64,000 nucleotides of DNA, taken from the human T2T-CHM13v2.0 reference genome, Homo sapiens. The DNA lies in assembly GCF_009914755.1 (NCBI RefSeq), contig NC_060927.1, one strand, 5' to 3'. Position numbers and translations under genes: made by a program. Below the pieces are notes generated by a model, which was not told the DNA's origin, searched no databases, and saw only the letters and a program-made list of their open reading frames with translations. The first letter of the stretch is position 1, and the number at the start of each line of letters is the position of its first letter. Positions 25,756 to 49,791 of the stretch are shown here, piece after piece.

Positions 25756-27755
<2,000 letters not shown>

Positions 27756-29640: not shown

Positions 29641-30044
29641 CAGTTTGTACCATCTCAACTACCAATTGCTGCCTGCATTCTCCAGTTTTCCAATAGTGCT
29701 TTGGTTGATTTTTGAAAAATGGATTAGGAGAAGTAAAAGGAAGCCAAGGGTTTTCTGCAGACCAGCCTGTTGGGCAGCAGAGCAGAGGGCAGTGCCACCA
29801 AGGTGAGAGACCTCAGAAAGCCTCCTTCCATCTTCTCCTTGATGTGAGAATATCCATAGGACAGAAACTCAGAAAGGAAAGGGAACGAGGTCCTTCACCC
29901 ACGCCAGCATATGAACAACTGTAAGGAGGAGAACACCTTCGCCTCCTTGCCTTTTAATTTTATTTAGTAAACACATTTCTTATGAATGGACACAACTTTT
30001 CCAGAGGAAAACCCCTTAAAGAGTAAATGTCTCTGTTTCTGTTC

Positions 30045-30347
<303 letters not shown>

Positions 30348-30427
30348 TTCTGTTCCCTTTTGACTCTTCTCAAGTTTTCATGTTGTGTAACCAGTGTGAA
30401 TACTTTTCAGCTACCTTTTTTCTTTAA

Positions 30428-30821
<394 letters not shown>

Positions 30822-31077
30822 TGAGTGCATCCTAATTTGCTTTCCAATTTGCATCAGGTTGAATATTTGCAGTAGTTCTAATTCATTAGTATTAATAACA
30901 CCAATATGATTATTTTTGCATCCATAGCTCCTTTATCCCTTTGGGTTTATTTATTCAGGGTGTGCTTCTGTATCCGTAGGTAGAATGATTCAATCAAGGT
31001 GAGGTCTCGGCTCTTGCTATTACCTTGCCAGATTATTATCCGGAAAGATGCAACCAATTTGTAGGGTCTCCAGTACC

Positions 31078-31079
31078 AT

Positions 31080-31118
<39 letters not shown>

Positions 31119-31131
31119 TTCATTTATTTTT
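31078..31131. repeat. (TTTA)n microsatellite abutting the 28-bp array
   Basis: About 12 copies followed by tttttggagac. Confidence 0.95.
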
Positions 31132-31137
31132 GGAGAC

Positions 31138-34100
31138 ATCTGCAAAGCATTTGGAATAGTTCACGATCCATAGTGTATTTGTGATAGTTTACCATCTACT
31201 ATCTGCAGCTCATTTGGGATAGTTTACCATCTGCAGCGCATTTGGGATAGTTTACTATCTGCAGCGCATTTGGGATAGTTTACCATCCGTAGTGTATTTG
31301 CGAGAGTTTACGATCTGCAGCGCATTTGGGATAGTTTACCATCTGTAGTGCATTTGTGATAGTTTACCATCCGTAGTGTATTTGCAATAGTTTACTATCT
31401 GTAGCACATCTGGGATAGTTTACTATCTGCAGTGCATTTGGGATAGTTTACTATCTGCAGCGCATTTGGGATAGTTTACTATCTGCAGCTCATTTGGGAT
31501 AGTTTACCATCCGTAGTGTATTTGCGAGAGTTTACGATCTGCAGCGCATTTGGGATAGTTTACTATCTGCATTGCATTTGGGATAGTTTACTATCTGCAG
31601 CGCATTTGGGATAGTTTACTATCCGTAGTGTATTTGCGAGAGTTTACTATCTGCAGCGCATTTGGGATAGTTTACCATCCGTAGTGTATTTGCGAGAGTT
31701 TACGATCTGCAGCGCATTTGGGATAGTTTACCATCTGTAGTGCATTTGTGATAGTTTACCATCCGTAGTGTATTTGCAATAGTTTACTATCTGTAGCACA
31801 TCTGGGATAGTTTACTATCTGCAGTGCATTTGGGATAGTTTACTATCTGTAGCAAATTTGGGATAGTTTACTATCTGCAGCGCATTTGTGATAGTTTACC
31901 ATCTGCTTGCATTTGGGATAGTTTACTATCTGCACCACATTTCGGATAGTTTATTATCTGTAGCACATTTGGGATAGTTTACCATCCATAGTGTATTTGC
32001 GATAGTTTACTCTCCGTAGTGCATTTGGGATAGTTTACTATCTGCAGCACATTTGGGATAGTTTACTATCTGTAGCACATCTGGGATAGTTTACTATCTG
32101 CAGTGCATTTGGGATAGTTTACTATCTGTAGTGTATTTGGGATAGTTTACTATCTGCAGCGCATTTGGGATAGTTTGCTATCTGTAGCAAATTTGGGATA
32201 GTTTACTATCTGCAGCGCATTTGGGATAGTTTGCTATCCGTAGTACATTTGGGATAGTTTACTATCTGCACCACATTTGGGATAGTTTACTATCTGTAGC
32301 ACATTTGGGATAGTTTACCATCCATAGTGTACTTGTGATAGTTTACTCTCCCTAGTGCATTTGGGATAGTTTACCATCTGTAGTGTATTTGTGATAGTTT
32401 ACTCTCCGTAGTGCATTTGGGATAGTTTACTATCTGTAGCACATTTGGGATAGTTTACTATCTGTAGCACAGTTGGGATAGTTTACTATCTGTAGTGCAT
32501 TTGGGATAGTTTACTCTCCATAGTGCATTTGGGATAGTTTACTATCTGTAGCACATTTGGGATAGTTTACTATCTGCAGCACATTTGGGATAGTTTACAA
32601 TCCGTAGTGTATTTGCAATAGTTTACTATCTGCAGCGCATTTGGGATAGTTTGCTATCCGTAGTACATTTGGGATAGTTTACTACCTGCGGCACATTTGG
32701 AATAGTTTACTATCTTCAGCACATTTGGGATAGTTTACTATTTGTAGCGCATTTTGGACAGTTTACTATCTGTAACACATTTGGGATAGTTTACTGTCTG
32801 CACCACATTTGGGATAGTTTACTATCTGCAGCGTATTTGGGATAGTTTACCATCTGCACCGCATTTTGGATAGTTTACTATCTGCACTGTATTTGGGATA
32901 GTTTACCATCTGTAGCGCATTTGGGATAGTTTACTATCTGCAGCACATTGGGGATAGTTTACTTTCTGTAGCACATTTGGTATAGTTTACTATCTGCAGC
33001 ACATTTGGGATAGTTTACTATCTGTAGCACATTTGGCATAGTTTACTATCTGTAGCGCATTTGGGATAGTTTACTATCTGCAGTGCATTTGGGATCATTT
33101 ACTCTCTGCCTCGCATTTGGGATAATTTACCATCTGTAGTGCATTTGGGATAGTTTCCTATCTGCAGTTCATTTGGGATAGTTTACTATCTGCCTTGCAT
33201 TTGGGATAGTTTACCATCCATAGTGCATTTGGGATAGTTTACTCTACGTAGTGCATTTGGGATAGTTTTCTATCTGTAACACATTTGGGATAGTTTTCTA
33301 TCTGTAGCGCATTTGGGATAGTTTACTATCTGCCTTGCATTTGGGATAGTTTACTATCCCAAATAGATAGTTTACTATCTATTTACAAATAGGTAGTTTT
33401 TACAAATAGATAGTTTACTATCTGCCTTGCATTTGGGATAGTTTTCTATCTGTAGTGCATTTGGGATAGTTTACTATCTGCCTTGCATTTGGGATAGTTT
33501 ACTATCTGCCTTGCATTTCGGATAGTTTACTATCTGCATCACATTTGGGATAGTTTACTATCTGTAGCAAATTTTGGATAGTTTACTCTCTGTAGTGCAT
33601 TTGGGATAGTATACTATCTGCAGCACATTTGGGAGAGTATACTAACCATAGTGTATTTGTGATAGTTTACTATCTGCAGTGCATTTGGAATACTTTACTA
33701 TCCATAGTGTATTTGTGATAGTTTACTATTTACAGCACATTTGGGTTACTTTACTATCTACCTTGCATTTGGAATAGTTTACCATCTGCAGCGCATTTGG
33801 GATAGTTTACTGCCTGCTTTGCATTTGGGATAGTTTACTATCCACAGTGCATTTGGGGTAGCTTACCATCTGCAGTGCATTTGGGATAGTTTACTATCTG
33901 CATCACATTTGGGATAGTTTACTATCTGTAGCAAATTTTGGATAGTTTACTCTCTGTAGTGCATTTGGGATAGTATACTATCTGCAGCACATTTGGGAGA
34001 GTATACTAACCATAGTGTATTTGTGATAGTTTACTATATGCAGTGCATTTGGGATACTTTACTATCCATAGTGTATTTGCGATAGTTTACTATTTACAGC

Positions 34101-37100
34101 GCATTTGGGTTACTTTACTATCTACCTTGCATTTGGAATAGTTTACCGTCTGCAGCGCATTTGGGATAGTTTACTGCCTGCCTTGCATTTGGGATAGTTT
34201 ACTATCCACAGTGCATTTGGGGTAGTTTAACATCTGCAGTGCATTTGGGATAGTTTACCATCTGCCTTGTATTTGGGGTAGTTTACTATATGCCTCGCAT
34301 TTGAGATAGTTTACTGTCTGCCTTGCATTCGGGATAGTTTACTATCTGCAGCGCAGTTGGGATAGTTTACCATCCATAGTGTATTTGTGACAGTTTACTA
34401 TCTGCAGCACATTTGGGATAGTTTACAATCCATAGTGTATTTTGATAGTTTACTATCTGCAGTGCACTTGAGATAGTTTACTATCTGCAGCACATTTGGG
34501 ATAGTTTACAATCCATAGTGTATTTGAGATAGTTTACTATCTATAGCGTATTTGGGATAGTTTACTATCTGTAGCACATTTGGAATAGTTTACTATCTGC
34601 AGCACATTTGGGATAGTTTACCATCCATAGTGTATTGGCAATAGTTTACTATCCGCAGTGCATTTGAGATAGTTTACTATCTGTAGCACATTTGGGATAG
34701 TTTACTATCTGCGGCATATTTGGGATAGTTTACTATCTGCAGTGCACTTGAGATAGTTTACTATCTGCAGCACATTTGGGATAGTTTACAATCTATAGTG
34801 TATTTGTGATAGTTTACTATCTATAGCATATTTGGGATAGTTTACTATCTGTAGCACATTTGGAATAGTTTACTATCTGCAGCACATTTGGGATAGTTTA
34901 CCATCCATAGTGTATTGGCTATAGTTTACTATCTGCAGTGCATTTGAGATAGTTTACTATCTGTAGCACATTTGGAATAGTTTACTATCTGCAGCATATT
35001 TGGGATAGTTTACTATCTGTAGCACATTTTGGATAGTTTACTATCCATAGTGTATTTTGATAATTTACTATCTGCAGTGCACTTGGGATAGTTTAGTATC
35101 TACAGCGCATTTGGGATAGTTTACTATCCATAGTGTATTTTGATAGTTTACTATCTGCAGTGCACTTGAGATAGTTTACTATCTGCAGCACATTCGGGAT
35201 AGTTTACTATCTGCAGTACATTTGGAATATTTTACTATCTGCAGCATATTTGGGATAGTTTACTATCTGTAGCACATTTGGGATAGTTTACTATCTGCAC
35301 CACATTTGGGATAGTTTACTATCTGCAGCGTATTTTGGATAGTTTACCATCTGCACCACATTTCATATAGTTTACTATCTGCTCTGTATTTGGGATAGTT
35401 TACTATCTGTCTCGCATTTGGGATAGTTTACTATCTGTCTCGCATTTGGGATAGTTTACTATCTGCAGTGCATTTGCGATAGTTTCCTGTCTGCCTTGCA
35501 TTTGGGATAGTTTACTATCTGCAGCACATTTGGGATACTTTACTATCTGTAGCACATTTAGGATAGTTTACTATCTGCAGCACATTTGGGATAGTTTACT
35601 ATCCATAGTGTAGTTGTGATAGTTTACTATCTGCAGTGCATTTGGGATAGTTTACTATCCGTAGTGTATTTTGATAGTTTACTAGCTGCAGCGCTTTTGG
35701 GATAGTTTGCTATCTGCTGCACATTTGGGATAGTTTCCTATCTGCCTTGCATTTGGGATAGTTTACCATCAGCAGCGCATTTGGGATAGTTTACTATCTG
35801 TGGCACATTTGGAATAGTTTACTATCTTCAGCACATTTGGGATAGTTTACTATCTGTAGCACATTTTGTATAGTTTACTATCTGTAACACATTAGGGATA
35901 GTTTACTATCTGCCTTGCATTTGGGATAGTTTACTATCTGCATCACATTTGGGATAGTTTACTATCTGTAGCATATTTGGGATAGTTTACTGTCTGTAGT
36001 GCATTTGGGATAGTATACTATCTGCAGCACATTTGGGAGAGTATACTAACCATAGTGTATTTGTGATAGTTTACTATCTGCAGCACATTTGGGATACTTT
36101 ACTATCCATAGTGTATTTGCAATAGTTTACTATTTGCAGTGTGTTTGGGTTAGTTTACTATCTGCCTTGCATTTGGAATAGTTTACCGTCTGCAGCGCAT
36201 TTGGGATTGTTTACTGCCTGCCTTGCATTTCGGATAGTTTACTATCTGCAGTGTATTTGGGATAGTTTACTCTTCATAGTGTAGTTGCAATAGTTTACTT
36301 TCTGCAGCACATTTGGGATAGGTTACTCTCCATACTGCATTTGGGATAATTTAATATCTGCACCACGTTGGGGGATAGTTTACTATCTGTAGCCCATTTT
36401 GGATAGTTTACTATCTGTAGCATATTTGGGATAGTTTACTATGTGCAGTGCATTTGGGATAGTTTACTATCTGCCTTGCATTTGGGATAGTTTAATATCT
36501 GCCTTGCATTTGGGATAGTTTCGTATCTGCCTTGCATTTGGGATAGTTTAGTATCTGCACTGCATTTGGGATAGTTTACTATCTGCAGCGCATTTGGGAT
36601 AGTTTACTCTCTGCACTGCAGTTGGGATAGTTTACCATCCATAGCACATTTGGGATAGTTTACCATCTGCAGCGCATTTGGGATAGTTTACCATCAGCAG
36701 TACATTTGGGACAGTTTACCATCTGCAGTGCATTTGGGATAGTTTACCATCCATAGCACATTTGGGATAGTTTACCATCTGCTGTACATTTGGGACAGTT
36801 TACCATCTGCAGCGCATTTGGGATAGTTTACTATCTGCAGCACAGTTGAGATACTTTACTATCTGTAGTGTATTTGTGATAGTTTACTATCTGCAGCACA
36901 GTTCAGATAGTTTACTATCTGTAGTGTATTTGTGATAGTTTACTATGTGCAGCACATGTGGGATAGTTTACTCTCCATAGCACATTTGCGATAGTTTTCT
37001 ATCTGCAGTGCATTTGGGATAGTTTACCATCTGCCTTGTATTTGGGATAGTTTACTATATGCCTCGCATTTGGGATAGGTTACTGTCTGCCTTGCATTTG

Positions 37101-40100
37101 GGATAGTTTACTATCTGCAGGGCAGTTGCGATAGTTTACCATCTGTAGTGTATTTGTGATAGTTTACTATCTGCAGCGCATTTGGGATAGTTTAGAATCC
37201 ATAGTGTATTTGCGATAGTTTACTATCTACAGCGCATTTGTGATAGTTTACTATCTGTAGCACATTTGGGATAGTTTACTGTCTGCAGCACATTTGGGAT
37301 AGTTTACTATCTGTAGCACATTTGGGATAGTTTACAATCTGCAGCACATTTGGAATAGTTTACTATCTGCAGCACATTTGGGATAGTTTACTATGTGTAG
37401 CACATTTTGGATAGTTTACTATCCATAGTGTATTTTGATAGTTTACTATCTGTAGTGCACTTGGGATTGTTTACTATCTACAGCGCATTTGTGATAGTTT
37501 ACTATCCATAGTGTATTTTGGTAGTTTACTATCTGCAGTGCACTTGGGATAGTTTACTATCTGCAACACATTTGGGATAGTTTACTCTCTGCAGCACATT
37601 TGGAATATTTTACTATCTGCAGCATATTTGGGATAGTTTACTATCTGTAGCACATTTTGGATAGTTTACTATTTGTAGCACATTTGGGATAGTTTACTAT
37701 CTGCACCACATTTGGGATAGTTTACTATCTGCAGTGTATTTGGGATAGTTTACCATCTGCACTGCATTTCGTATAGTTTACTATCTGCTCTGTATGTGGG
37801 ATAGTTTACTATCTGCAGCGCATTTGGGATAGTTTGCTATCTGCAGCAGATTTGAGATAGTTTACTATCTGTAGTGCATTTGGGATAGTTTACTATCCAT
37901 AGCCCATTTGGGATAGTTTACTATCTGCAGTTCATTTGGGATAGCTTACCATCTGTAGTGCATTTGGGATAGTTTACTATCCATAGCACATTTGGGATAG
38001 TTTACTATCTGCCTTGCATTTGGGATAGTTTAACATCCATAGTGCATTTGGGATAGTTTACTATCTGCAGCACATTTGGGATAGTTTACAATCTGAAGTG
38101 TATTTGTGATAGTTTACTGTCTGCAGCACATTTGGGATAGTTTAATCTCCATAGCACATTTGGGATAGTTTTCTATCTGTAGCACATTTGGGATAGTTTA
38201 CTTTCTGCCTTGCATTTTGGATAGTTTACTCTCTGCATCACGTTTGGAATAGTTTACTATCTGCAGCACATTTGTGATAGTTTACTGTCTGTAGTGCATT
38301 TGGGATAGTACACTATCTGCAGCGCATTTGGGATAGTTTACTATCTGCACCACATTTGGGATAGTTTACTATCCGTAGTGCATTTCCAATAGTTTACTAC
38401 CTGCAGCGCATTTGGAATAGTTTAGTATCTGCAGCACATTTGGGATATTTCACTATCTGTAGCACATTTTGGATAGTTTACTATCTGCAGCACATTTAGG
38501 ATAGTTTACTATCTGCAGCGTATTTGGGATAGTTTACCATCTGCACCGCATTTCGGATAGTTTAGTATCTGCACTGTATTTGGGATAGTTTATCATCTGT
38601 AGGGCATTCGGGATAGTTTACCATCTGCAGTGCATTTGGGATAGTTTACCATCTGCACCACATTTGGGATAGTTTACTATCTGCTCTGTATTTGGGATAG
38701 TTTACCATCTGTAGTGCATTTGGGATAGTCTACTATCTGCAGCACATTTGGGATAGTTTAGTATTTGTGGCACATTTGGGATAGGTTACTATCTGCCTCG
38801 CATTTGGGATAGTTTACCATCCACAGTGCATTTGGCATAGTTTACTATCTGCCTCGCATTTGCCATAGTTTGCTATCCACAGCGCATTTGGGGTAGTTTA
38901 CTATCCACAGTGCATTTGGGATAGTTTACTATCTGCTCTGTTTTTGGGATAGTTTACAATCTGTAGTGCATTTGGGATAGTTTACTATCTGTGGCACATT
39001 TGGGATAGTTTACTATTTGTGGCACATTTGGGATAGGTTACTATCTGCCTCGCTTTTGGGATAGTTTACTATCCACAGCGCATTTTGGGTAGTTTACTAT
39101 CTGCAGTGCATTTGGGATAGTTTACCATCTGCCTTGTATTTGGGATAGTTTACTATCTGCCTCGCATTTGGGGTAGCTTACTATCTGTCTTGCATTTGGG
39201 ATAGTTTACTATCCAGAGCACATTTGGGGTAGTTTGCTATCTGCAGTGCATTTGGGATATTTTACCATCTGCCTTGTATTTGGGATCATTTACTATCTGC
39301 CTCACAATTGAGGTAGTTTACTATCTGGAGCGCAGTTGGGATAGTTTACCATCTGCCTTGTATTTGGGATAGTTTACTATCTGCAGTGCATTTGGGATAG
39401 TTTACTATCTGCAGCACATTTGGGATAGTTTACCATCCATAGTGTATTTGCGATAGTTTACTATCTGCAGCACATTTGGGATAGTTTACTATCCGCAATA
39501 CATTTGGGATACTTTACTATCTGCAGCGTATTTGGGATAGTTTACCATCTGCACTCCATTTCGGATATTTTACTATCTGCACTGTATTTGCAATAGTTTA
39601 CCATCTGTAGCGCATTTGGGATAGTTTACCATCTGCAGCACATTTGGGATAGTTTACTGTCTGCCTTGCATTTGGTATAGTTTACTATCTGAAGCGCATT
39701 TGGGATAGTTCAGCATCCATAGTGTATTTGCGATAGTTTACTATCTGCAGCACATTTGGGATAGTTTACTCTCCGTAGCACATTTGGGACAGTTTACCAT
39801 CCATAGTGTATTTGCGATAGTTTACCATCTGTAGCACATTTGGGATAGCTTACCATCTGTAGCGCATTTGGGATAGTTTACTATCTGCCTTGCATTTGGG
39901 ATAGTTTACTATCTGCACTGCATTTGGGATAGTTTACTATCTGCAGCACATTTGGGATAGTTTACTATCCATAGTGTATTTTCGAGAGTTTACTATTTGC
40001 AGTGCTTTCGGGATCGTTTACTATCCATAGTGTATTTGCAATAGTTTACTATCTGCAGCGCATTTGGGATAGGTTACTATTAGTAGTGCATATGGGATAG

Positions 40101-43100
40101 TTTTCTATCTGCACCGCATTGGGGATAGTTTACCATCCATAGTGTATTTGGGATAGTTTTCTATGTGCAGCGCATTTGGGATAGTTTACTCTCTGCCTTG
40201 CATTTGGGATAGTTTACTATCTACACCGCATTTAAGATAGTTTACTATCTGTAGCATATTTGGGATAGTTTACTATCTGTAGCGCATTTGGGATAGTTTA
40301 CTATCTGCCTTGCATTTGGGATAGTTTACTGTCTGCACCGCATTTGGGAAAGTTTACTATCTGCCTTGCATTTGGGATAGTTTACCATCTGTAGCGCATT
40401 TGGGATAGTTTAGTATCTGCAGTACATTTGGGATAGTTTACCATCTGCACCACATTTGGGATAGTTTACTATCTGCTCTGTATTTGGCATAGTTTACAAT
40501 CATTAGCACATTTGGGATAGTTTACTATCTGTGGCACATTTTGTATAGTTTACTATTTGTGGCACATTAAGGATAGATTACTATCTGCCTCGCATTTGGG
40601 ATAGTTTAACATCCACAGTGCATTTGGGATAGTTTACTATCCACAGTGCATTTGGGGTAGTTTACTATTCGCAGTGCATTTGGGATAGTTTACAATCTGC
40701 CTTGTATTTGGGATAGTTTATGATCTTCCTTGTATTTGGGATAGTTTACTATCTGCCTCGCATTTGGGATAGTTTACTGTCTGCCTTGCATTTGGGATAG
40801 TTTACTATCTGCAGCACATTTGGGATAGTTTACCATCCGTAGTGTATTTGCGATAGTTTACTATCTGCAGCACCTTTGGGATAGTTTACTATCTCTAGCA
40901 CATTTGGGATAGTTTACTATCTGCAGCACATTTCCGATAGTTTACCATCTGTAGTGTATATGCGATAGTTTCCTATCTGCAGCACCTTTGGGATAGTTTA
41001 CTATCTCTAGCACATTTGGGATAGTTTACTATCTGCAGCACATTTCCGATAGTTTACCATCTGTAGTGTATATGCGATAGTTTCCTATCTGCAGCACATT
41101 TGGGATAGTTTACTATCTGTAGTGTATTTTGATAGTTTGCTATCTGCAGTGCCCTTGGGATATTTTACTATCTGCAGCACATTTGGGATAGTTTACTATC
41201 TGCAGCACATTTGGGATAGTTTACTATCTGTAGCAAATTTTGGAGAGTTTACTATTTGTAGCACATTGGGATAGTTTACTCTCTGCAGTGTATTTGGGAT
41301 AGTTTACCATCTGCACCGCATTTTGGATAGTTTACTATGTGCACTTTATTTGGGATAGTTTACCATCTATAGCACATTTGGGTTAGTTTACTATCTGCTC
41401 TGTATTTGGGAGAGTTTACCATCTGCACCTCATTTGGGATAGTTTGCTATCTGCTCTGTATTTGGGATGGTTTACTATCTGCGGTGCATTTGGGATAGTT
41501 TACTATCTGCAGCACATTTGGGATAGTTTACTGTCTGTAGTGTGTTTGCGATAGTTTACTATCTGCCTCACATTTCGGATAGTTTACTGTCTGCAGTGCA
41601 TTTTGGATAGTTTACTATCCATAATGTATTTGCGATAGTTTACTATCTGCAGCGCATTTGGGATAGTTTACTATCTGCAGCACATTTCGGGTAGTTTACC
41701 ATCTGCAGCGCATTTGCGATAGTTTACTGTCTGCCTTGCATTTGGGATAGTTCACTATCTGCAGCACATTTGGTATAGTTTACTATCTGCAGTGCATTTG
41801 GGATAGTTTACTGTCTGCCTTGCATTTGGGATAGTTTACTATCTGCAGCGCATTTAGGATAGTTTACTATCCGTAGTGTATTTTTGATAGTTTACTATCT
41901 GCAGTGCATTTGGGATAGTTTACTATCCATAGTGTATTTGGGATAGTTTACTCTCTGCAGCACATTTGGGATAGTTTACTATCTGCAGCGCATTTGGGAT
42001 AGTTTACTCTCTGTAGCACATTTGGGATAGTTTCCTATCTGCCTTGCATTTGGGATAATTTACCATCAGCAGCGCATTTGGGATAGTTTACTGTCTGCCT
42101 TGCATTTGGGATAGTTTACTATCTGCAGCACATTTGGGATAGTTTACTGTCTGTAGTGTGTTTGTGACAGTTTACTATCTGCCTCACATTTCGGATAGTT
42201 TACTGTCTGCAGTGCATTTTGGATAGTTTACTATCCATAGTGTATTTGCGATAGTTTACTATCTGCAGCACATTTGGGATAGTTTACTATCTGCAGCACA
42301 TTTCGGATAGTTTACTATCTGCAGCACATTTGGAATATTTTACTATCTGCAGCACATTTGGGATAGTTTACTATCTGCAGCACATTTCGGATAGTTTACT
42401 ATCTGCAGCACATTTCGGATAGTTTACTATCTGCAGCGCATTTGCGATAGTTTACTATCTGCCTTGCATTTGAGATATTTCACTATCTGCAGCACATTTG
42501 GTATAGTTTACTATCTGCAGTGCATTTGGGATAGTTTACTGTCTGCCTTGCATTTGGGATAGTTTACTATCTGCAGCGCATTTGGGATAGTTTACTATCC
42601 GTAGTGTATTTTTGATAGTTTACTATCTGCAGTGCATTTGGGATAGTTTACTATCCATAGTGTATTTGCGATAGTTTACTCTCTGCAGCACATTTGGGAT
42701 AGTTTACTATCTGCAGCGCATTTGGGATAGTTTGCTATCTGTAGCACATTTGGGATAGTTTCCTATCTGCCTTGCATTTGGGATAGTTTACCATCTGCAG
42801 CACATTTGGGATAGTTGACTGTCTGCCTTGCATTTGGGACAGTTTACCATCCGTAGTGTATTTGGGATAGTTTACTATCTGCAGTGCATTTGGGATAGTT
42901 TACTATCTGCAGCGCATTTGGGATAGTTTACCATCCATAGTATATTTGCAATAGTTTACTATCTGCAGTGCATTTGGGATAGTTTACTATCTGCAGCGCA
43001 TTTGGGTTAGTTTACTGTCTGCCTTGCATTTGGGATAGTTTACTATCTGCAGTGCATTTAGGATAGTTTACTATCCGTAGTGTATTTTTGATAGTTTACT

Positions 43101-45152
43101 ATCTGCAGTACATTTGGGATAGTTTACTATCCATAGTGTATTTGGGATAGTGTACTCTCTGCAGCACATTTGGGATAGTTTACTATCTGCAGCGCATTTG
43201 GGATAGTTTACTCTCTGTAGCACATTTGGGATAGTTTCCTATCTGCCTTGCATTTGGGATAGTTTACCATCAGCAGCGCATTTGGGATAGTTTACTGTCT
43301 GCCTTGCATTTGGGATAGTTTACTATCTGCAGCACATTTGGGATAGTTTACTGTCTGTAGTGTGTTTGTGACAGTTTACTATCTGTCTCACATTTCGGAT
43401 AGTTTACTGTCTGCAGTGCATTTTGGATAGTTTACTATCCATAGTGTATTTGCGATAGTTTACTATCTGCAGCACATTTGGGATAGTTTACTATCTGCAG
43501 CACATTTCGGATAGTTTACTATCTGCAGCGCATTAGCAATAGTTTACTATCTGCCTTGCATTTGGGATATTTCACTATCTGCAGCACATTTGGTATAGTT
43601 TACTATCTGCAGTGCATTTGGGATAGTTTACTGTCTGCCTTGCATTTGGGATAGTTTACTATCTGCAGCGCATTTGGGATAGTTTACTATCCATAGTGTA
43701 TTTTTGATAGTTTACTATCTGCAGTGCATTTGGGATAGTTTACTATCCATAGTGTATTTGCGATAGTTTACTCTCTGCAGCACATTTGGGATAGTTTACT
43801 ATCTGCAGCGCATTTGGGATAGTTTACTATCCATAGTGTATTTGCAATGGTTTACCATCTGCAGCGCATTTGGGATAGTTTACTATCTGCAGTGCATTTG
43901 GGATAATTTAGTATCTGCCACACATTTGGGATAGTTTACTATCCATAGTGTATTTGGGATAGTTTACTATCTGCAGCGCATTTGGGATAGTTTACTATCT
44001 GCAGCGCATTTGGGATAGTTTACCATCCATAGTGTATTTGCGATAGTTTACTATCTGCAGCGCATTTGGGATAGTTTACTATCTGCCTTGCATTTGGGAT
44101 AGTTTACTATCTGCAGCGCATTTGGGATAGTTTACCATCCATAGTGTATTTGCGATAGTTTACTATCTGCAGCGCATTTGGGATAGTTTACTGTCTGCCT
44201 TGCATTTGGGATAGTTTACTATCTGCAGCGCATTTGGGATAGTTTACCATCCATAGTGTGTTTGCGACAGTTTACTATCTGCAGCGCATTTGGGATAGTT
44301 TACCATCCATAGTGTATTTGCGACAGTTTACTATCTGCAGCACATTTCGGATAGTTAACTGTCTGCCTTGCATTTGGGATAGTTTACTATCTGCAGCGCA
44401 TTTGGGATAGTTTACTGTCTGCCTTGCATTTGGGATAGTTTACTATCTGCAGCGCATTTGGGATAGTTTACCATCCATAGTGTGTTTGCGACAGTTTACT
44501 ATCTGCAGCGCATTTGGGATAGTTTACCATCCATAGTGTATTTGCGACAGTTTACTATCTGCAGCACATTTCGGATAGTTAACTCTCTGCCTTGCATTTG
44601 GGATAGTTTACTATCTGCAGCGCATTTGGGATAGTTTTCCATCCATTGCATATTTGCGAAAGTTTACTATCTGCAGCGCATTTGGGATAGTTTACTATCC
44701 ATAGTGTATTTGCAATGGTTTACCATCTGCAGCACATTTGGGATAGTTTACTATCTGCAGTGCATTTGGGATAATTTAGTATCTGCCACACATTTGGGAT
44801 AGTTTACTATCCATAGTGTATTTGTGATAGTTTACTATCTGCAGCGCATTTGGGATAGTTTACTATCTGCAGCGCATTTAGGATAGTTTACTCTCCATTG
44901 TGTATTTGCAATAGTTTACTATATGCAGCGCATTTGGGATAGTTTACTATCTTCAATGCATTTGGGATAGGTTACTGTCTGCCTTGCATTTGGGGTAGTT
45001 TACTATGTGCAGCGCAGTTGGGATAGTTTACTGTCTGCCTTGCATTTGGGGTAGTTTACTATCTGTAGCACATTTGGGATAGTTTACTATCTGCAGCGCA
45101 TTTGCAATAGTTTACTATCTGCAGCGCATTTGGGATAGTTTACTGTCTGTAG
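31138..45152. repeat. ~14-kb 28-bp tandem array (minisatellite/VNTR, ~500 units), consensus GATAGTTTACTATCTGCAGCGCATTTGG
   Basis: Continuous 28-bp periodicity with a conserved core and a variable segment (TGCAGCGC, TGCAGCAC, TGTAGCAC, TGCCTTGC, CATAGTGT, CGTAGTGT and others). Confidence 0.98.
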
Positions 45153-46885
45153 TTCTTTTGCCCATTAGCTTGGATTCCTTGTCGTAGGGTCTCTTTTTGT
45201 CTGCTTTGCAAGCAAAAATCAGAGCCCCTGAGTCACAAAAGTGTGTAGGTACCTTTCCACACTAGTTTCTCCTCATTCAGGGACCCCATGGCTTATAAGA
45301 AGGTAAAGCTGAGTGGCTCTCAAGTGTCCCAGGAAAACAGTCCTTTCTGCATGTTTGATCTGCCAAGTTGCCAATATCTGATCTGAGCTCCTCAGAAGCT
45401 CCTAGGAGAAAGAGGTGACTCAGGGAGCAGAAATGATGGGCCAGAGAGAGAACCCTAATAGCTAGCTTCACAGGCCCATCTCTGTCTTTGCCCACCTTTC
45501 CTCACCCAAGTACAACAGTGTTTGGAGTGGCTTAGTGTAACCTAACTTTCAGTGGTCCCCTCAGGACTGGTAGGCCAAATTTAGAGCCCACACAAGGAAG
45601 TCTATTGGTCATGTGGTGTGCCTTGAAGCCTGCAGCATGTAAAAAGTTATATTTAATACCCTGGGAGAGACCAAATACAGGAAAGCCAGTTTGTGGGATA
45701 CAATTATTTTTTCATAAGAAGCCTCTCTGCCTATGTGTTTGGTAAACTGTTAGCCCTCTAAGAGTTGGACTATGGATTCTCTAGTCTTATAGTTAGACAC
45801 GTGGACAAGCAGAACGTTTAAGAGTCAGAGGAACATTCCAGGATCTTCAACAGCCCTAAACAAGGTCATTGGCATCCTGCTAGATATGGTTGGCACAGAG
45901 CACACTCTGTGACTGACCCTCTCAATCAGCCCAGCATCCTGTCCAGTGGCCTGACCGAGGGCTGCACTGTAATCCTTGTTTCCTTTGAAAGTCTGGAATT
46001 CATAAGGAAATAGGGTGGGGGTAAAGAATGGATGATCTAATTTTCCAAGGGAGTATTGGATTAGTCAACAACTTGATCCCCACTGCTGAGATAGCTCCTT
46101 TTGTGAATATTTTACCTACCCACCTGCTAGGTCTCAAGGCTTCTGAAAGTACTCTTCCTAGACAACTACACTGAGCATCTTAAAACAGCACAGTCTGCTT
46201 CCTTCCCTCACTGATTCTGAAAAACGGAGCCGCTCCCAGTCCCTTTCGTATCCACCCTGACTCCAGGCAGGATAACACTGGATAAAGTCCCCTATATCCT
46301 TCAGCATAAAAATCCCAAAAGTCCACTCCAAGGCCTTCTGCCTGCTCTTGTTTAAGACACAGTGGCTGGTCTCTGAAGCAGCCTCTAGAGGCTCTGATGC
46401 CAGCCAGTACATTTAAAGATGAGCTAAAGGAAACAGAAGGGTAGTTGGTACACTTCTTTATCTCCCGACATTTGCCTGGAGCAAAAGAAAGAGGAGAATG
46501 ATGCTGAGATTAAAGCCTCTCCCCTGGAGTGATTCTATGTGGCCTGTTGCGTTGGTGCAGAGAGGCAAGGCAATAAGGCCTTCTGGGGTTCAGCAGAGAG
46601 ACAGGTCAAACAAGGGTACTGCCCAGGCTGCTGGGGCCCCAATCAAGATGTGACTCTTCTCCAAAGGGAGCAGATGACACGGGCCTCCTTGTACCAGTGT
46701 GGCAGCCAGCATGTGTGCAGGATGGGGACAGACACTCAGGATAGGCAGAGAGAGCCACATTACCAAGTAATCAGACTTGTTTACCACTCTTGAGGTAAAT
46801 GTGGGAAGCCAACAACCAGCATTTTGTAGAGTCACTTGGCGGAAGAAACACCATCCACACAAGTCAATCAAAAATATATATTCTT

Positions 46886-49338: not shown

Positions 49339-49791
49339 ACATATAGGATGCAGGTGGTCCCGCACATCACGGGGAAGGACAGATTATTTAGTAAATGGCA
49401 TTTGGGAAACAGGCTCATTGTATAGAGAAAAATAAAACTGGACCCCTACTTAACACTAAATACAAAAGAGGACTCTGCATGCTTTAAAAACCTAAGTATA
49501 AAAGGTTAAAGAAAAATAGTGGAAATAAAATGGGCAGAAGAGAGTGCAGGGACGTATCTTTGTGATCGATCCTCCTCAAAACAAAATTTCAAAAGCATAA
49601 GGCAAATTTTTACGAATATGATTAAATTAAAATTAGGGGTTTCTAATCAACAAAAGTCCCCATGGACAAAGTTAGTAGACTGTTAACAGAACAGGCGTAG
49701 ATATTTGTAACATCTAAATCAATGAGGGATTGATACGAAGAATATGGAAAGATCTTGAACATTTATGACTGTAATTAAAAATGGGGAAAGG

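What the first reader, a model, noticed from the sequence alone, without database searches (positions are those of the whole stretch)
31138..45152. 14-kb array of a 28-bp unit with a conserved palindromic core and a variable segment
Seen: ~500 units, each containing GATAGT-TT-ACTATC (6-bp dyad, or 7 bp in GGATAGTTTACTATCC variants) followed by a ~8-bp segment drawn from a limited vocabulary. A second small dyad, TGC-NNN-GCA, is kept in several variants (AGC, AGT, CTT, CTC, ACT, ACC). It is very long for an interstitial minisatellite in Alu-rich DNA and matches no classical satellite I recognise. Inference: a hairpin-driven, probably lineage-expanded and highly polymorphic VNTR that is likely collapsed in older assemblies. 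I cannot tell whether it is already catalogued.
Basis: partly seen in the sequence, partly recalled or inferred. Interest (0 to 1): 0.85.

Follow-up and report, generated by a model that had tools for sequence, protein, structure and literature searches.

The report
Large single-locus 28-bp minisatellite at 3q29
This is a real 14-kb non-coding array of about 500 copies of a 28-base unit found at only one place in this human genome; it looks like an old, ordinary large minisatellite rather than a new kind of element.

Summary
TRF finds one array at 31197-45152 with period 28 and 498.4 copies. Two degenerate units precede it from 31138.

My segmentation gives 498 units, 294 of them distinct. The unit is specific to this locus in T2T-CHM13. 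All 232 genome-wide matches to a 26-mer lie in the window, as do 458 of 460 matches to a degenerate 28-mer.

- **Coding or RNA:** none. The longest stop-to-stop frame is 73 aa, and Rfam gives no hit.
- **Age:** the array is old and diverged. Mean unit identity is about 81%, there is no array-wide higher-order repeat, and variation is transition-rich at CpG-type positions.
- **Recent growth:** young multi-unit block duplications cluster in the distal third.
- **The dyad:** the GATAGT-TT-ACTATC dyad is perfect at 194 of 465 junctions. This is no more than shuffling gives, there are no compensatory pairs, and the hairpins are weak.

The "hairpin-driven" reading is therefore not supported. Polymorphism, lineage-specific expansion and collapse in older assemblies could not be tested here. 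I found no name for the array in print, but the T2T list of newly curated satellite arrays was not visible to me.

Verdict: an ordinary, unusually large member of a known kind.

The parts
31078..31129 (+). (ATTT)13 microsatellite directly abutting the 5' edge of the array
   Evidence: TRF period 4, 13.0 copies, 95% matches; sequence read
31138..31196 (+). Two degenerate leading units of the 28-bp repeat
   Evidence: Read. The first degenerate unit matches the 28-mer pattern with 3 mismatches at 31154-31181
31197..45152 (+). Main 28-bp array of 498 units. The consensus is TACTATCTGCAGCGCATTTGGGATAGTT. Unit types are A (about 348-408 units), B (62-68, never adjacent to each other) and C (70)
   Evidence: TRF; segmentation; column counts; clustering and type map
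33528..34255 (+). Tandem duplication of a 13-unit block (364 bp twice), 97.8% identical
   Evidence: Unit-diagonal run search
34451..35010 (+). Tandem duplication of a 10-unit block (280 bp twice), 97.5% identical
41501..44888 (+). Distal zone with the youngest block duplications and local 4- and 8-unit periodicity. Examples: 19 units at lag 43, 98.7% identical; 9 units at lag 8, 99.6%
   Evidence: most five-unit windows with a partner of at least 98% identity lie at units 370-490
30820..31077 (.). Unique 5' flank, usable as an anchor. It lies between an Alu-like stretch ending at 30818 and the (ATTT)n tract
   Evidence: Only the self match in the whole CHM13 genome. The Alu bounds come from the hub's masking list and the sequence read
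45153..45560 (.). Unique 3' flank, usable as an anchor
   Evidence: Only the self match in the whole genome

Best explanation
The feature is an old, single-locus, non-coding minisatellite (a VNTR-type tandem array) at human 3q29. By the hub's gene table it lies about 84.5 kb beyond the DLG1 end and about 23 kb before lncRNA LOC105374308.

The proposed history has four steps:
1. A 28-bp founder unit that happened to contain a short palindrome was amplified.
2. The copies then diverged, mainly by transitions at methylated CpG-type positions.
3. At least three unit types arose (A, B and C).
4. The array kept growing by unequal exchange or replication slippage of multi-unit blocks of 4 to 43 units, most recently in its distal third.

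The palindrome is inherited from the founder unit and is not maintained by selection for pairing. I infer no sequence-specific cellular function. The likely biological effect is that of a large, probably length-variable block of repetitive DNA.

Shown: anatomy, uniqueness to one locus, absence of coding or known RNA, divergence pattern, block duplications, lack of covariation. Inferred: the mechanism of growth, germline methylation, neutrality.
For: **Tandem structure and size:**

**Locus specificity in CHM13.**
- 232 of 232 genome-wide matches to a 26-mer (up to 2 mismatches) lie in the window.
- 458 of 460 genome matches to a degenerate 28-mer (up to 3 mismatches) lie in the window. The reversed control pattern gives 1 match.
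- Both flanks are unique in the genome.

**Non-coding.**
- The longest stop-to-stop frame is 73 aa among 50 frames of at least 40 aa.
- Rfam gives 0 matches at gathering score over 30000-46500.

**Old and diverged.**
- Unit identity is about 0.81 at every lag from 1 to 119, with no array-wide higher-order period.
- 217 of 498 units are unique sequences.
- The median best partner of a five-unit window is 92.9% identical.
- Differences from consensus are 1082 transitions against 528 transversions, led by C to T (502) and G to A (300).
- Positions 13 and 14 split C256/T222 and G310/A161, as expected from CpG decay.
- CpG observed/expected is 0.37.

**Growth by blocks.** There are 18 diagonal runs of at least 6 units at 95-100% identity. 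These include tandem 13-unit and 10-unit duplications and a cluster in the distal third.

Against: - Neutrality and lack of function are inferred from absence of evidence. No chromatin, methylation, expression or population data could be consulted.
- A 280-nt stretch of the array folds better as single-stranded DNA than its shuffles: -31.8 against -20.95 +/- 3.31 kcal/mol, z -3.28, 0 of 200 shuffles as good. Some multi-unit slipped structure is therefore possible.
- The small inner dyad shows more palindromic unit versions than shuffling gives: 197 against 154.6 +/- 7.9, 0 of 1000 shuffles. These include 39 TGT..ACA double-change units. I attribute this to descent of an amplified unit type, but selection is not excluded.
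- The unit carries dense matches to transcription-factor-like words: 304 WGATAR matches (21.7 per kb against 1.4 per kb in the rest of the window) and 407 GTAAAC cores.
- Age estimates assume no elevated mutation rate in the array.
Confidence: 0.78

Rival explanations
1. Hairpin- or cruciform-driven expansion. The GATAGT-TT-ACTATC dyad extrudes hairpins during replication, and this is the main cause of the array's growth and instability.
For: - The dyad is perfect at 194 of 465 junctions and occurs 203 times exactly.
- The 7-bp variant folds at -3.4 kcal/mol, z -3.22.
- A 280-nt stretch has z -3.28.
Against: - The standard unit hairpin is only -2.2 kcal/mol (z -0.99; 27 of 200 shuffles as good).
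- The B-type junction is -1.1 kcal/mol (z -0.41).
- There is no excess of perfect dyads over shuffled arms and no compensatory change.
- Units with a broken dyad (position 4 C in 80 of 480 units) were themselves amplified in blocks.
- A 2-nt spacer forces a 5-bp A/T-rich stem with a 4-nt loop.
Confidence: 0.12
2. A functional cis-regulatory or chromatin platform. The array is a dense cluster of factor-binding sites (GATA-like, forkhead-like, or a KRAB zinc-finger target), and its length tunes nearby genes or nucleates heterochromatin.
For: - 304 WGATAR matches, at 21.7 per kb against 1.4 per kb in the rest of the window.
- 407 GTAAAC cores, at 29 per kb against 0.24 per kb. The motifs are recalled consensus words.
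- The conserved part of the unit (positions 16-28 and 1-7) carries these words.
Against: - Any repeated unit multiplies whatever words it holds.
- The conservation pattern is equally explained by the variable part being CpG-rich.
- No binding, accessibility or expression data were available.
- The RefSeq enhancer marks listed by the hub lie outside the array.
Confidence: 0.07
3. A transposable-element-derived satellite. The founder unit and the immediate flanks are a piece of an ancient interspersed repeat (I suspected an old L1 lying antisense), from which a 28-bp segment was amplified. This concerns origin and is compatible with the best explanation.
For: Only a recalled resemblance. One short match lies at the place I predicted: the 3' flank on the minus strand against the ORF2 segment of a young L1 copy, 19 residues, E = 26.
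Against: - blastn of flanks and edge units against four young L1 loci gave only chance-level hits; the best E values were 0.026-0.06 for 13-19 bp.
- tblastn with L1 ORF2 gave nothing for the 5' flank and only E >= 0.38 for the 3' flank.
- Neither flanks nor units resemble anything else in the window (best E 0.051).
- The flanks have only self matches in the genome.
Confidence: 0.2
4. An assembly artefact: an over-expanded or mis-joined tandem repeat in the assembly.
For: None from my calls. Long tandem arrays are in general error-prone to assemble.
Against: - 294 distinct units fall in a non-periodic order, which gives many unique anchors along the array.
- 427 of 494 five-unit windows have no partner of at least 98% identity.
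- Both edges are sharp and lie in unique DNA.
Confidence: 0.02

Closest known systems
Locus-specific VNTR arrays above 10 kb in the human reference (Warburton et al. 2008, PMC2588610, Table 1; passages seen)
   Same: - Short unit (20-1823 bp in that list), array above 10 kb, single locus, no RepeatMasker class.
- Many lie in distal chromosome bands. The list has a 28-bp array of 15.5 kb at 2p25.3 and a 38-bp array of 13.8 kb at 3q29.
   Different: - This array is not in that hg18 list.
- The 3q29 entry there has another period (38 bp), and by my recalled gene coordinates it lies about 2 Mb proximal.
- The 2p25.3 28-mer is unrelated. The only chromosome 2 hit of my pattern is one 3-mismatch match at 26.4 Mb.
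- This array has no array-wide higher-order repeat.
AT-rich, inverted-repeat-bearing minisatellites of rare fragile sites (FRA16B 33-bp, FRA10B about 42-bp units; recalled, not looked up)
   Same: Minisatellite units that contain short inverted repeats and can reach many kilobases.
   Different: - This array is only 61.4% A+T and its unit hairpins are weak.
- I know of no fragile site reported at this place (recalled).
- Expansion-dependent fragility is untested.
Classical GC-rich hypervariable minisatellites with the Jeffreys core, at recombination hotspots (recalled)
   Same: Unit length of tens of bases, distal chromosomal location, interspersed unit variants, and polarity with the youngest changes at one end.
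   Different: - A/T-rich and T-skewed strand (T 38.8%, A 22.6%).
- 0 matches to the recalled core word GGGCAGGANG and 0 to the recalled PRDM9 13-mer in the array.
- Much longer and far more diverged than those loci.
Newly curated interstitial satellite arrays of T2T-CHM13 (Hoyt et al., preprint 10.1101/2021.07.12.451456; passages seen)
   Same: [quoted passage not shown] This array could be one of them.
   Different: I could not see the list, which is a table image and closed supplements. The main text names no chromosome 3 arm array; its 6 mentions of chromosome 3 concern the centromere.

Membership tests
Minisatellite / VNTR | Head-to-tail tandem units of about 10-100 bp | tested here: met
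   Period 28, 498.4 copies; 480 of 498 units are exactly 28 bp
Minisatellite / VNTR | Single genomic locus, not a dispersed or multi-chromosome satellite | tested here: met
   232 of 232 and 458 of 460 genome-wide pattern matches lie in the window
Minisatellite / VNTR | Copy number varies among individuals | not testable with these tools
   Only one haploid-like human assembly is held. There are no pangenome or read data
Higher-order-repeat satellite | Array-wide multi-unit period with high identity between higher-order copies | tested here: not met
   Identity is flat at 0.80-0.825 for lags 1-119. Only local blocks and a weak 2-unit alternation are seen
Classical named human satellites (alpha, beta, gamma, HSat1-3, SST1 and others) | Sequence match to the family model; pericentromeric, acrocentric or multi-locus distribution | tested here: inconclusive
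   The distribution criterion is not met, because the unit is at a single locus on a distal arm. No Dfam or Repbase library was available to test sequence similarity
Classical GC-rich hypervariable minisatellite | G-rich core motif; association with a PRDM9-type hotspot motif | tested here: not met
   0 matches to either recalled motif in the array; G+C is 38.6%
AT-rich palindromic fragile-site minisatellite (FRA16B/FRA10B type) | Very high A+T content and stable hairpins from the inverted repeats | tested here: not met
   A+T is 61.4%. Unit hairpins are -1.1 to -3.4 kcal/mol, and 3 of 4 are within 2 sd of shuffles
Structured RNA gene or coding repeat | Match to an RNA family, or a long open frame through the repeat | tested here: not met
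   0 Rfam matches; the longest stop-to-stop frame is 73 aa, and 28 is not a multiple of 3

The most novel reading that the evidence does not exclude
The array is a highly length-polymorphic element, expanded in one primate lineage, inside the 3q29 interval whose deletion is a strong schizophrenia risk factor. Its roughly 300 GATA-type and 400 forkhead-like words per allele, or its non-B DNA potential, would make allele length a modifier of neighbouring genes (DLG1, BDH1, local lncRNAs) or a site of breakage for atypical rearrangements.
Probability: 0.06. Interest if true: 0.6.

Novelty: new member of a known kind. Interest (0 to 1): 0.3.

Why it matters
**Rarity.** Locus-specific arrays of short units above 10 kb are few. 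The 2008 survey of hg18 counted 16.

**Location.** By the hub's table the array lies 84.5 kb from DLG1. By recalled gene order it lies proximal to BDH1, and so probably inside the recurrent 3q29 deletion and duplication interval. The passages give that interval as 195.94-197.64 Mbp (GRCh38).

**Practical value.** The value is mainly technical:
- Short reads cannot size this locus.
- It may differ between assemblies.
- The unique flanks at 30820-31077 and 45153-45560, together with the unit-type map, give anchors for genotyping it in long-read pangenomes.

**Limits.** If the array proved strongly length-variable and tied to expression or breakpoints, it would gain interest. Nothing here shows that.

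Tried and rejected
- **Whole-genome DNA search.** A search with 601 bp of the array was not scored because there were too many candidates. I replaced it with pattern searches.
- **Origin from an ancient L1.**
  - The recalled L1 C-terminal family accession is not in the library.
  - A 30-aa flank frame found only itself in the genome.
  - I fetched young L1 copies through RVT_1. blastn and tblastn gave only chance-level hits. The result is inconclusive, because young L1s are a poor proxy for ancient ones.
- **Similarity within the window.** Flanks and units resemble nothing else in the window.
- **RNA gene or coding repeat.** Rejected.
- **Array-wide higher-order repeat.** Rejected.
- **Selection on the main dyad.** Rejected.
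- **Literature.** Eight searches were run.
  - Six 13-14-base words of the unit, on both strands, were searched in the full text of about 8.4 million papers. One unrelated hit resulted.
  - Searches combining 3q29, DLG1, BDH1, VNTR, minisatellite, T2T and eQTL returned no paper describing this array.
  - I read passages in PMC2588610, PMC13263140, PMC13689511, PMC8327921, PMC12855859, PMC10170684, PMC12776774 and preprint 10.1101/2021.07.12.451456. None mentions it.
  - Two papers were not held.
  - Supplementary tables, where tandem-repeat catalogues and the T2T new-satellite list live, were not seen. Absence from print is therefore not shown.
Full report
**1. What is there**

TRF finds one tandem array at window 31197-45152 with period 28, 498.4 copies, 77% matches and 1% indels. 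The same span is reported at period 56 with 82% matches. An (ATTT)13 microsatellite at 31078-31129 abuts the 5' edge. Two degenerate units follow at 31138-31196. The 3' edge at 45152 is sharp.

A dynamic-programming split against the consensus TACTATCTGCAGCGCATTTGGGATAGTT gives 498 units:
- 480 of 28 bp, 12 of 27, 4 of 29 and 2 of 32;
- 294 distinct sequences;
- the consensus itself is the commonest unit, with 32 copies.

The 7-bp form occurs 32 times. The observation and its coordinates are confirmed.

**2. One locus only**

The window is chr3:200074001-200138000 of the held T2T-CHM13 genome.

- A 26-base stretch of the unit, allowing up to 2 mismatches, matches 232 times in the whole genome, all forward. 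The reversed control gives 0. It matches 232 times in the window.
- A degenerate 28-mer, allowing up to 3 mismatches, matches 459 times forward and once in reverse. The reverse hit is on chromosome 2 with 3 mismatches. The reversed control gives 1. It matches 458 times in the window.
- At most two chance-level matches therefore lie elsewhere.
- Both flanks (30820-31077 and 45153-45560) find only themselves in the genome.

The array is not a copy of a multi-locus satellite, and the flanks are not part of a segmental duplication detectable by these searches.

**3. Anatomy of the unit**

Positions 1-7 and 16-28 are well kept. Positions 8-15 carry most of the variation. The split positions are mostly transition pairs:

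| Position | Counts |
|---|---|
| 13 | C 256 / T 222 |
| 14 | G 310 / A 161 |
| 8 | T 390 / C 84 |
| 9 | G 399 / A 73 |
| 10 | C 312 / T 164 |

Against the consensus there are 1082 transitions and 528 transversions, led by C to T (502) and G to A (300). This is the pattern of CpG decay. The "limited vocabulary" of the variable segment is largely CGC, CAC and TGC versions of one ancestral word, plus a CCTT/CCTC type.

CpG observed/expected is 0.37 in the array and 0.27-0.31 in the flanks. The plus strand is T-rich: T 38.8%, A 22.6%, G 21.6%, C 17.0%.

Clustering separates a main type (408 of 480 units) from a B type (68) with several linked differences. By a simple rule there are 348 A, 70 C and 62 B units, plus 18 units of odd length. 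B units are never adjacent to each other (0 BB pairs), which explains the 56-bp TRF row.

**4. Long-range structure and relative age**

Mean identity between units is about 0.81 at every lag from 1 to 119 units. There is a slight dip at lag 1 (0.804) and a slight rise at lag 2 (0.825). There is no array-wide higher-order repeat.

Local block duplications exist. I found 18 diagonal runs of at least 6 units at 95-100% identity, for example:
- a tandem 13-unit block (33528-34255, 97.8%);
- a tandem 10-unit block (34451-35010, 97.5%);
- a cluster in the distal third, such as 19 units at lag 43 (98.7%) and 9 units at lag 8 (99.6%).

The best partner elsewhere for each of the 494 five-unit windows falls as follows:

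| Best partner identity | Windows |
|---|---|
| at least 98% | 67 |
| 95-98% | 111 |
| 90-95% | 259 |
| 85-90% | 57 |

The median is 92.9%, and 217 of 498 units are unique sequences.

Most of the array is therefore old, diverged sequence, with recent growth concentrated at the distal end. I infer growth by unequal exchange or slippage of multi-unit blocks. The mechanism itself is not shown.

**5. The palindrome**

The 6-bp dyad spans each unit junction. It is perfect at 194 of 465 junctions between 28-bp units. Three results argue against selection for pairing:
- Shuffling the right arms among junctions gives 197.7 +/- 4.8 perfect dyads, and 810 of 1000 shuffles reach the observed number.
- No junction carries a compensatory double change.
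- The commonest break (A opposite C, 78 junctions, from T to C at position 4) is uncompensated.

As single-stranded DNA, hairpins centred on a junction are weak:

| Junction | Free energy (kcal/mol) | z |
|---|---|---|
| Standard, plus strand | -2.2 | -0.99 |
| Standard, minus strand | -2.4 | -1.56 |
| B-type | -1.1 | -0.41 |
| 7-bp variant | -3.4 | -3.22 |

A 280-nt stretch folds better than its shuffles (-31.8 against -20.95 +/- 3.31, z -3.28). Multi-unit slipped structures are therefore possible.

The small inner dyad TGC-NNN-GCA is present in 157 of 480 units. Palindromic versions in total number 197, against 154.6 +/- 7.9 on shuffling (0 of 1000), and include 39 TGT..ACA units. Units are related by descent and one such unit type is amplified (TGTAGCAC, 29 copies). 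I read this as inheritance, not selection, and a 3-bp stem is not a stable structure.

Overall the dyad is a feature of the founder unit. "Hairpin-driven" is not supported, though a contribution of secondary structure to slippage is not excluded.

**6. What it is not**

- No open frame from stop to stop exceeds 73 aa, and 28 is not a multiple of three.
- No Rfam family matches 30000-46500 at gathering score.
- The recalled Jeffreys-type core and PRDM9 13-mer words have 0 matches in the array.
- The array is 61.4% A+T, far from the very A+T-rich fragile-site minisatellites that I recall.

**7. Word content**

Because the unit is repeated, the array holds two dense word sets (motifs recalled):
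- 304 WGATAR matches, at 21.7 per kb against 1.4 per kb in the rest of the window;
- 407 GTAAAC cores, at 29 per kb against 0.24 per kb.

This is a lead for a binding-platform reading, not evidence of function.

**8. Origin**

I suspected from memory that the flanks and founder unit derive from an ancient L1 lying antisense. The tests did not bear this out:
- Young L1 copies fetched from the same genome gave only chance-level blastn hits.
- tblastn with L1 ORF2 gave only chance-level hits. The one match at the predicted place has E = 26.
- Nothing else in the window resembles the flanks or units.

The test is weak, because young L1s are poor proxies for ancient ones and no Dfam library was on hand. 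The origin stays open.

**9. Context**

By the hub's table (not my calls), no gene is annotated in the window. The array starts 84.5 kb beyond the DLG1 end and ends 23 kb before lncRNA LOC105374308.

Passages of Yilmaz et al. 2023 (PMC10170684) place the recurrent 3q29 deletion at 195.94-197.64 Mbp (GRCh38), with BDH1 on its distal side. By recalled gene order the array lies between DLG1 and BDH1, inside that interval. The same paper describes one atypical deletion whose breakpoints lie outside segmental duplications. Nothing links it to this array.

**10. Is it already described?**

- Warburton et al. 2008 (PMC2588610, passages) list 16 locus-specific arrays above 10 kb in hg18. This array is not among them. 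Their 3q29 entry has a 38-bp unit at another position.
- Words of the unit searched in full texts gave one unrelated hit.
- Six topic searches and passages in eight papers gave no description.
[quoted passage not shown] The list is in a table image and supplements that I could not see. Genome-wide tandem-repeat catalogues (for example PMC12855859, passages) almost certainly hold a row for this locus.

I cannot say it is unnamed, only that I found no characterisation.

**11. Verdict**

This is a real, unusually large, single-locus, non-coding 28-bp minisatellite. It is old and diverged, with recent block growth at its distal end. It is a new member of a known kind, of modest interest. Its main value is as a locus to genotype in long-read data within a clinically important interval.

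Noticed in passing
window 31078-31129: An (ATTT)13 microsatellite sits directly against the 5' edge of the 28-bp array, so two different tandem repeats are juxtaposed.
   Followed up: no
window 31197-45152 (unit map): B-type units are never adjacent to each other (0 of 62). Each is flanked by A- or C-type units, which gives the weak 56-bp period.
   Followed up: partly
window 31197-45152, unit positions 8-10 and 14-16: The small inner dyad has more palindromic versions than shuffling gives (197 against 154.6 +/- 7.9), including 39 TGT..ACA double-change units. This probably reflects descent of an amplified unit type.
   Followed up: partly
window 27618-27716 (-) and about 49372-49769 (+): These are L1 ORF2-like fragments found by tblastn with a young L1 ORF2 (E 1e-4 and 1e-8). 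The second pair of coordinates was converted from an array-less concatenate. They are unrelated to the array.
   Followed up: no
window 33382-33416: A 17-bp, 2.1-copy tandem row reported by TRF inside the array marks a local irregularity where units of odd length occur.
   Followed up: no
window 30033-30352 and 30479-30818: Two Alu-like elements lie just upstream of the array (sequence read; bounds from the hub's masking list). Only about 260 bp of unique DNA separate the second one from the (ATTT)n tract.
   Followed up: no
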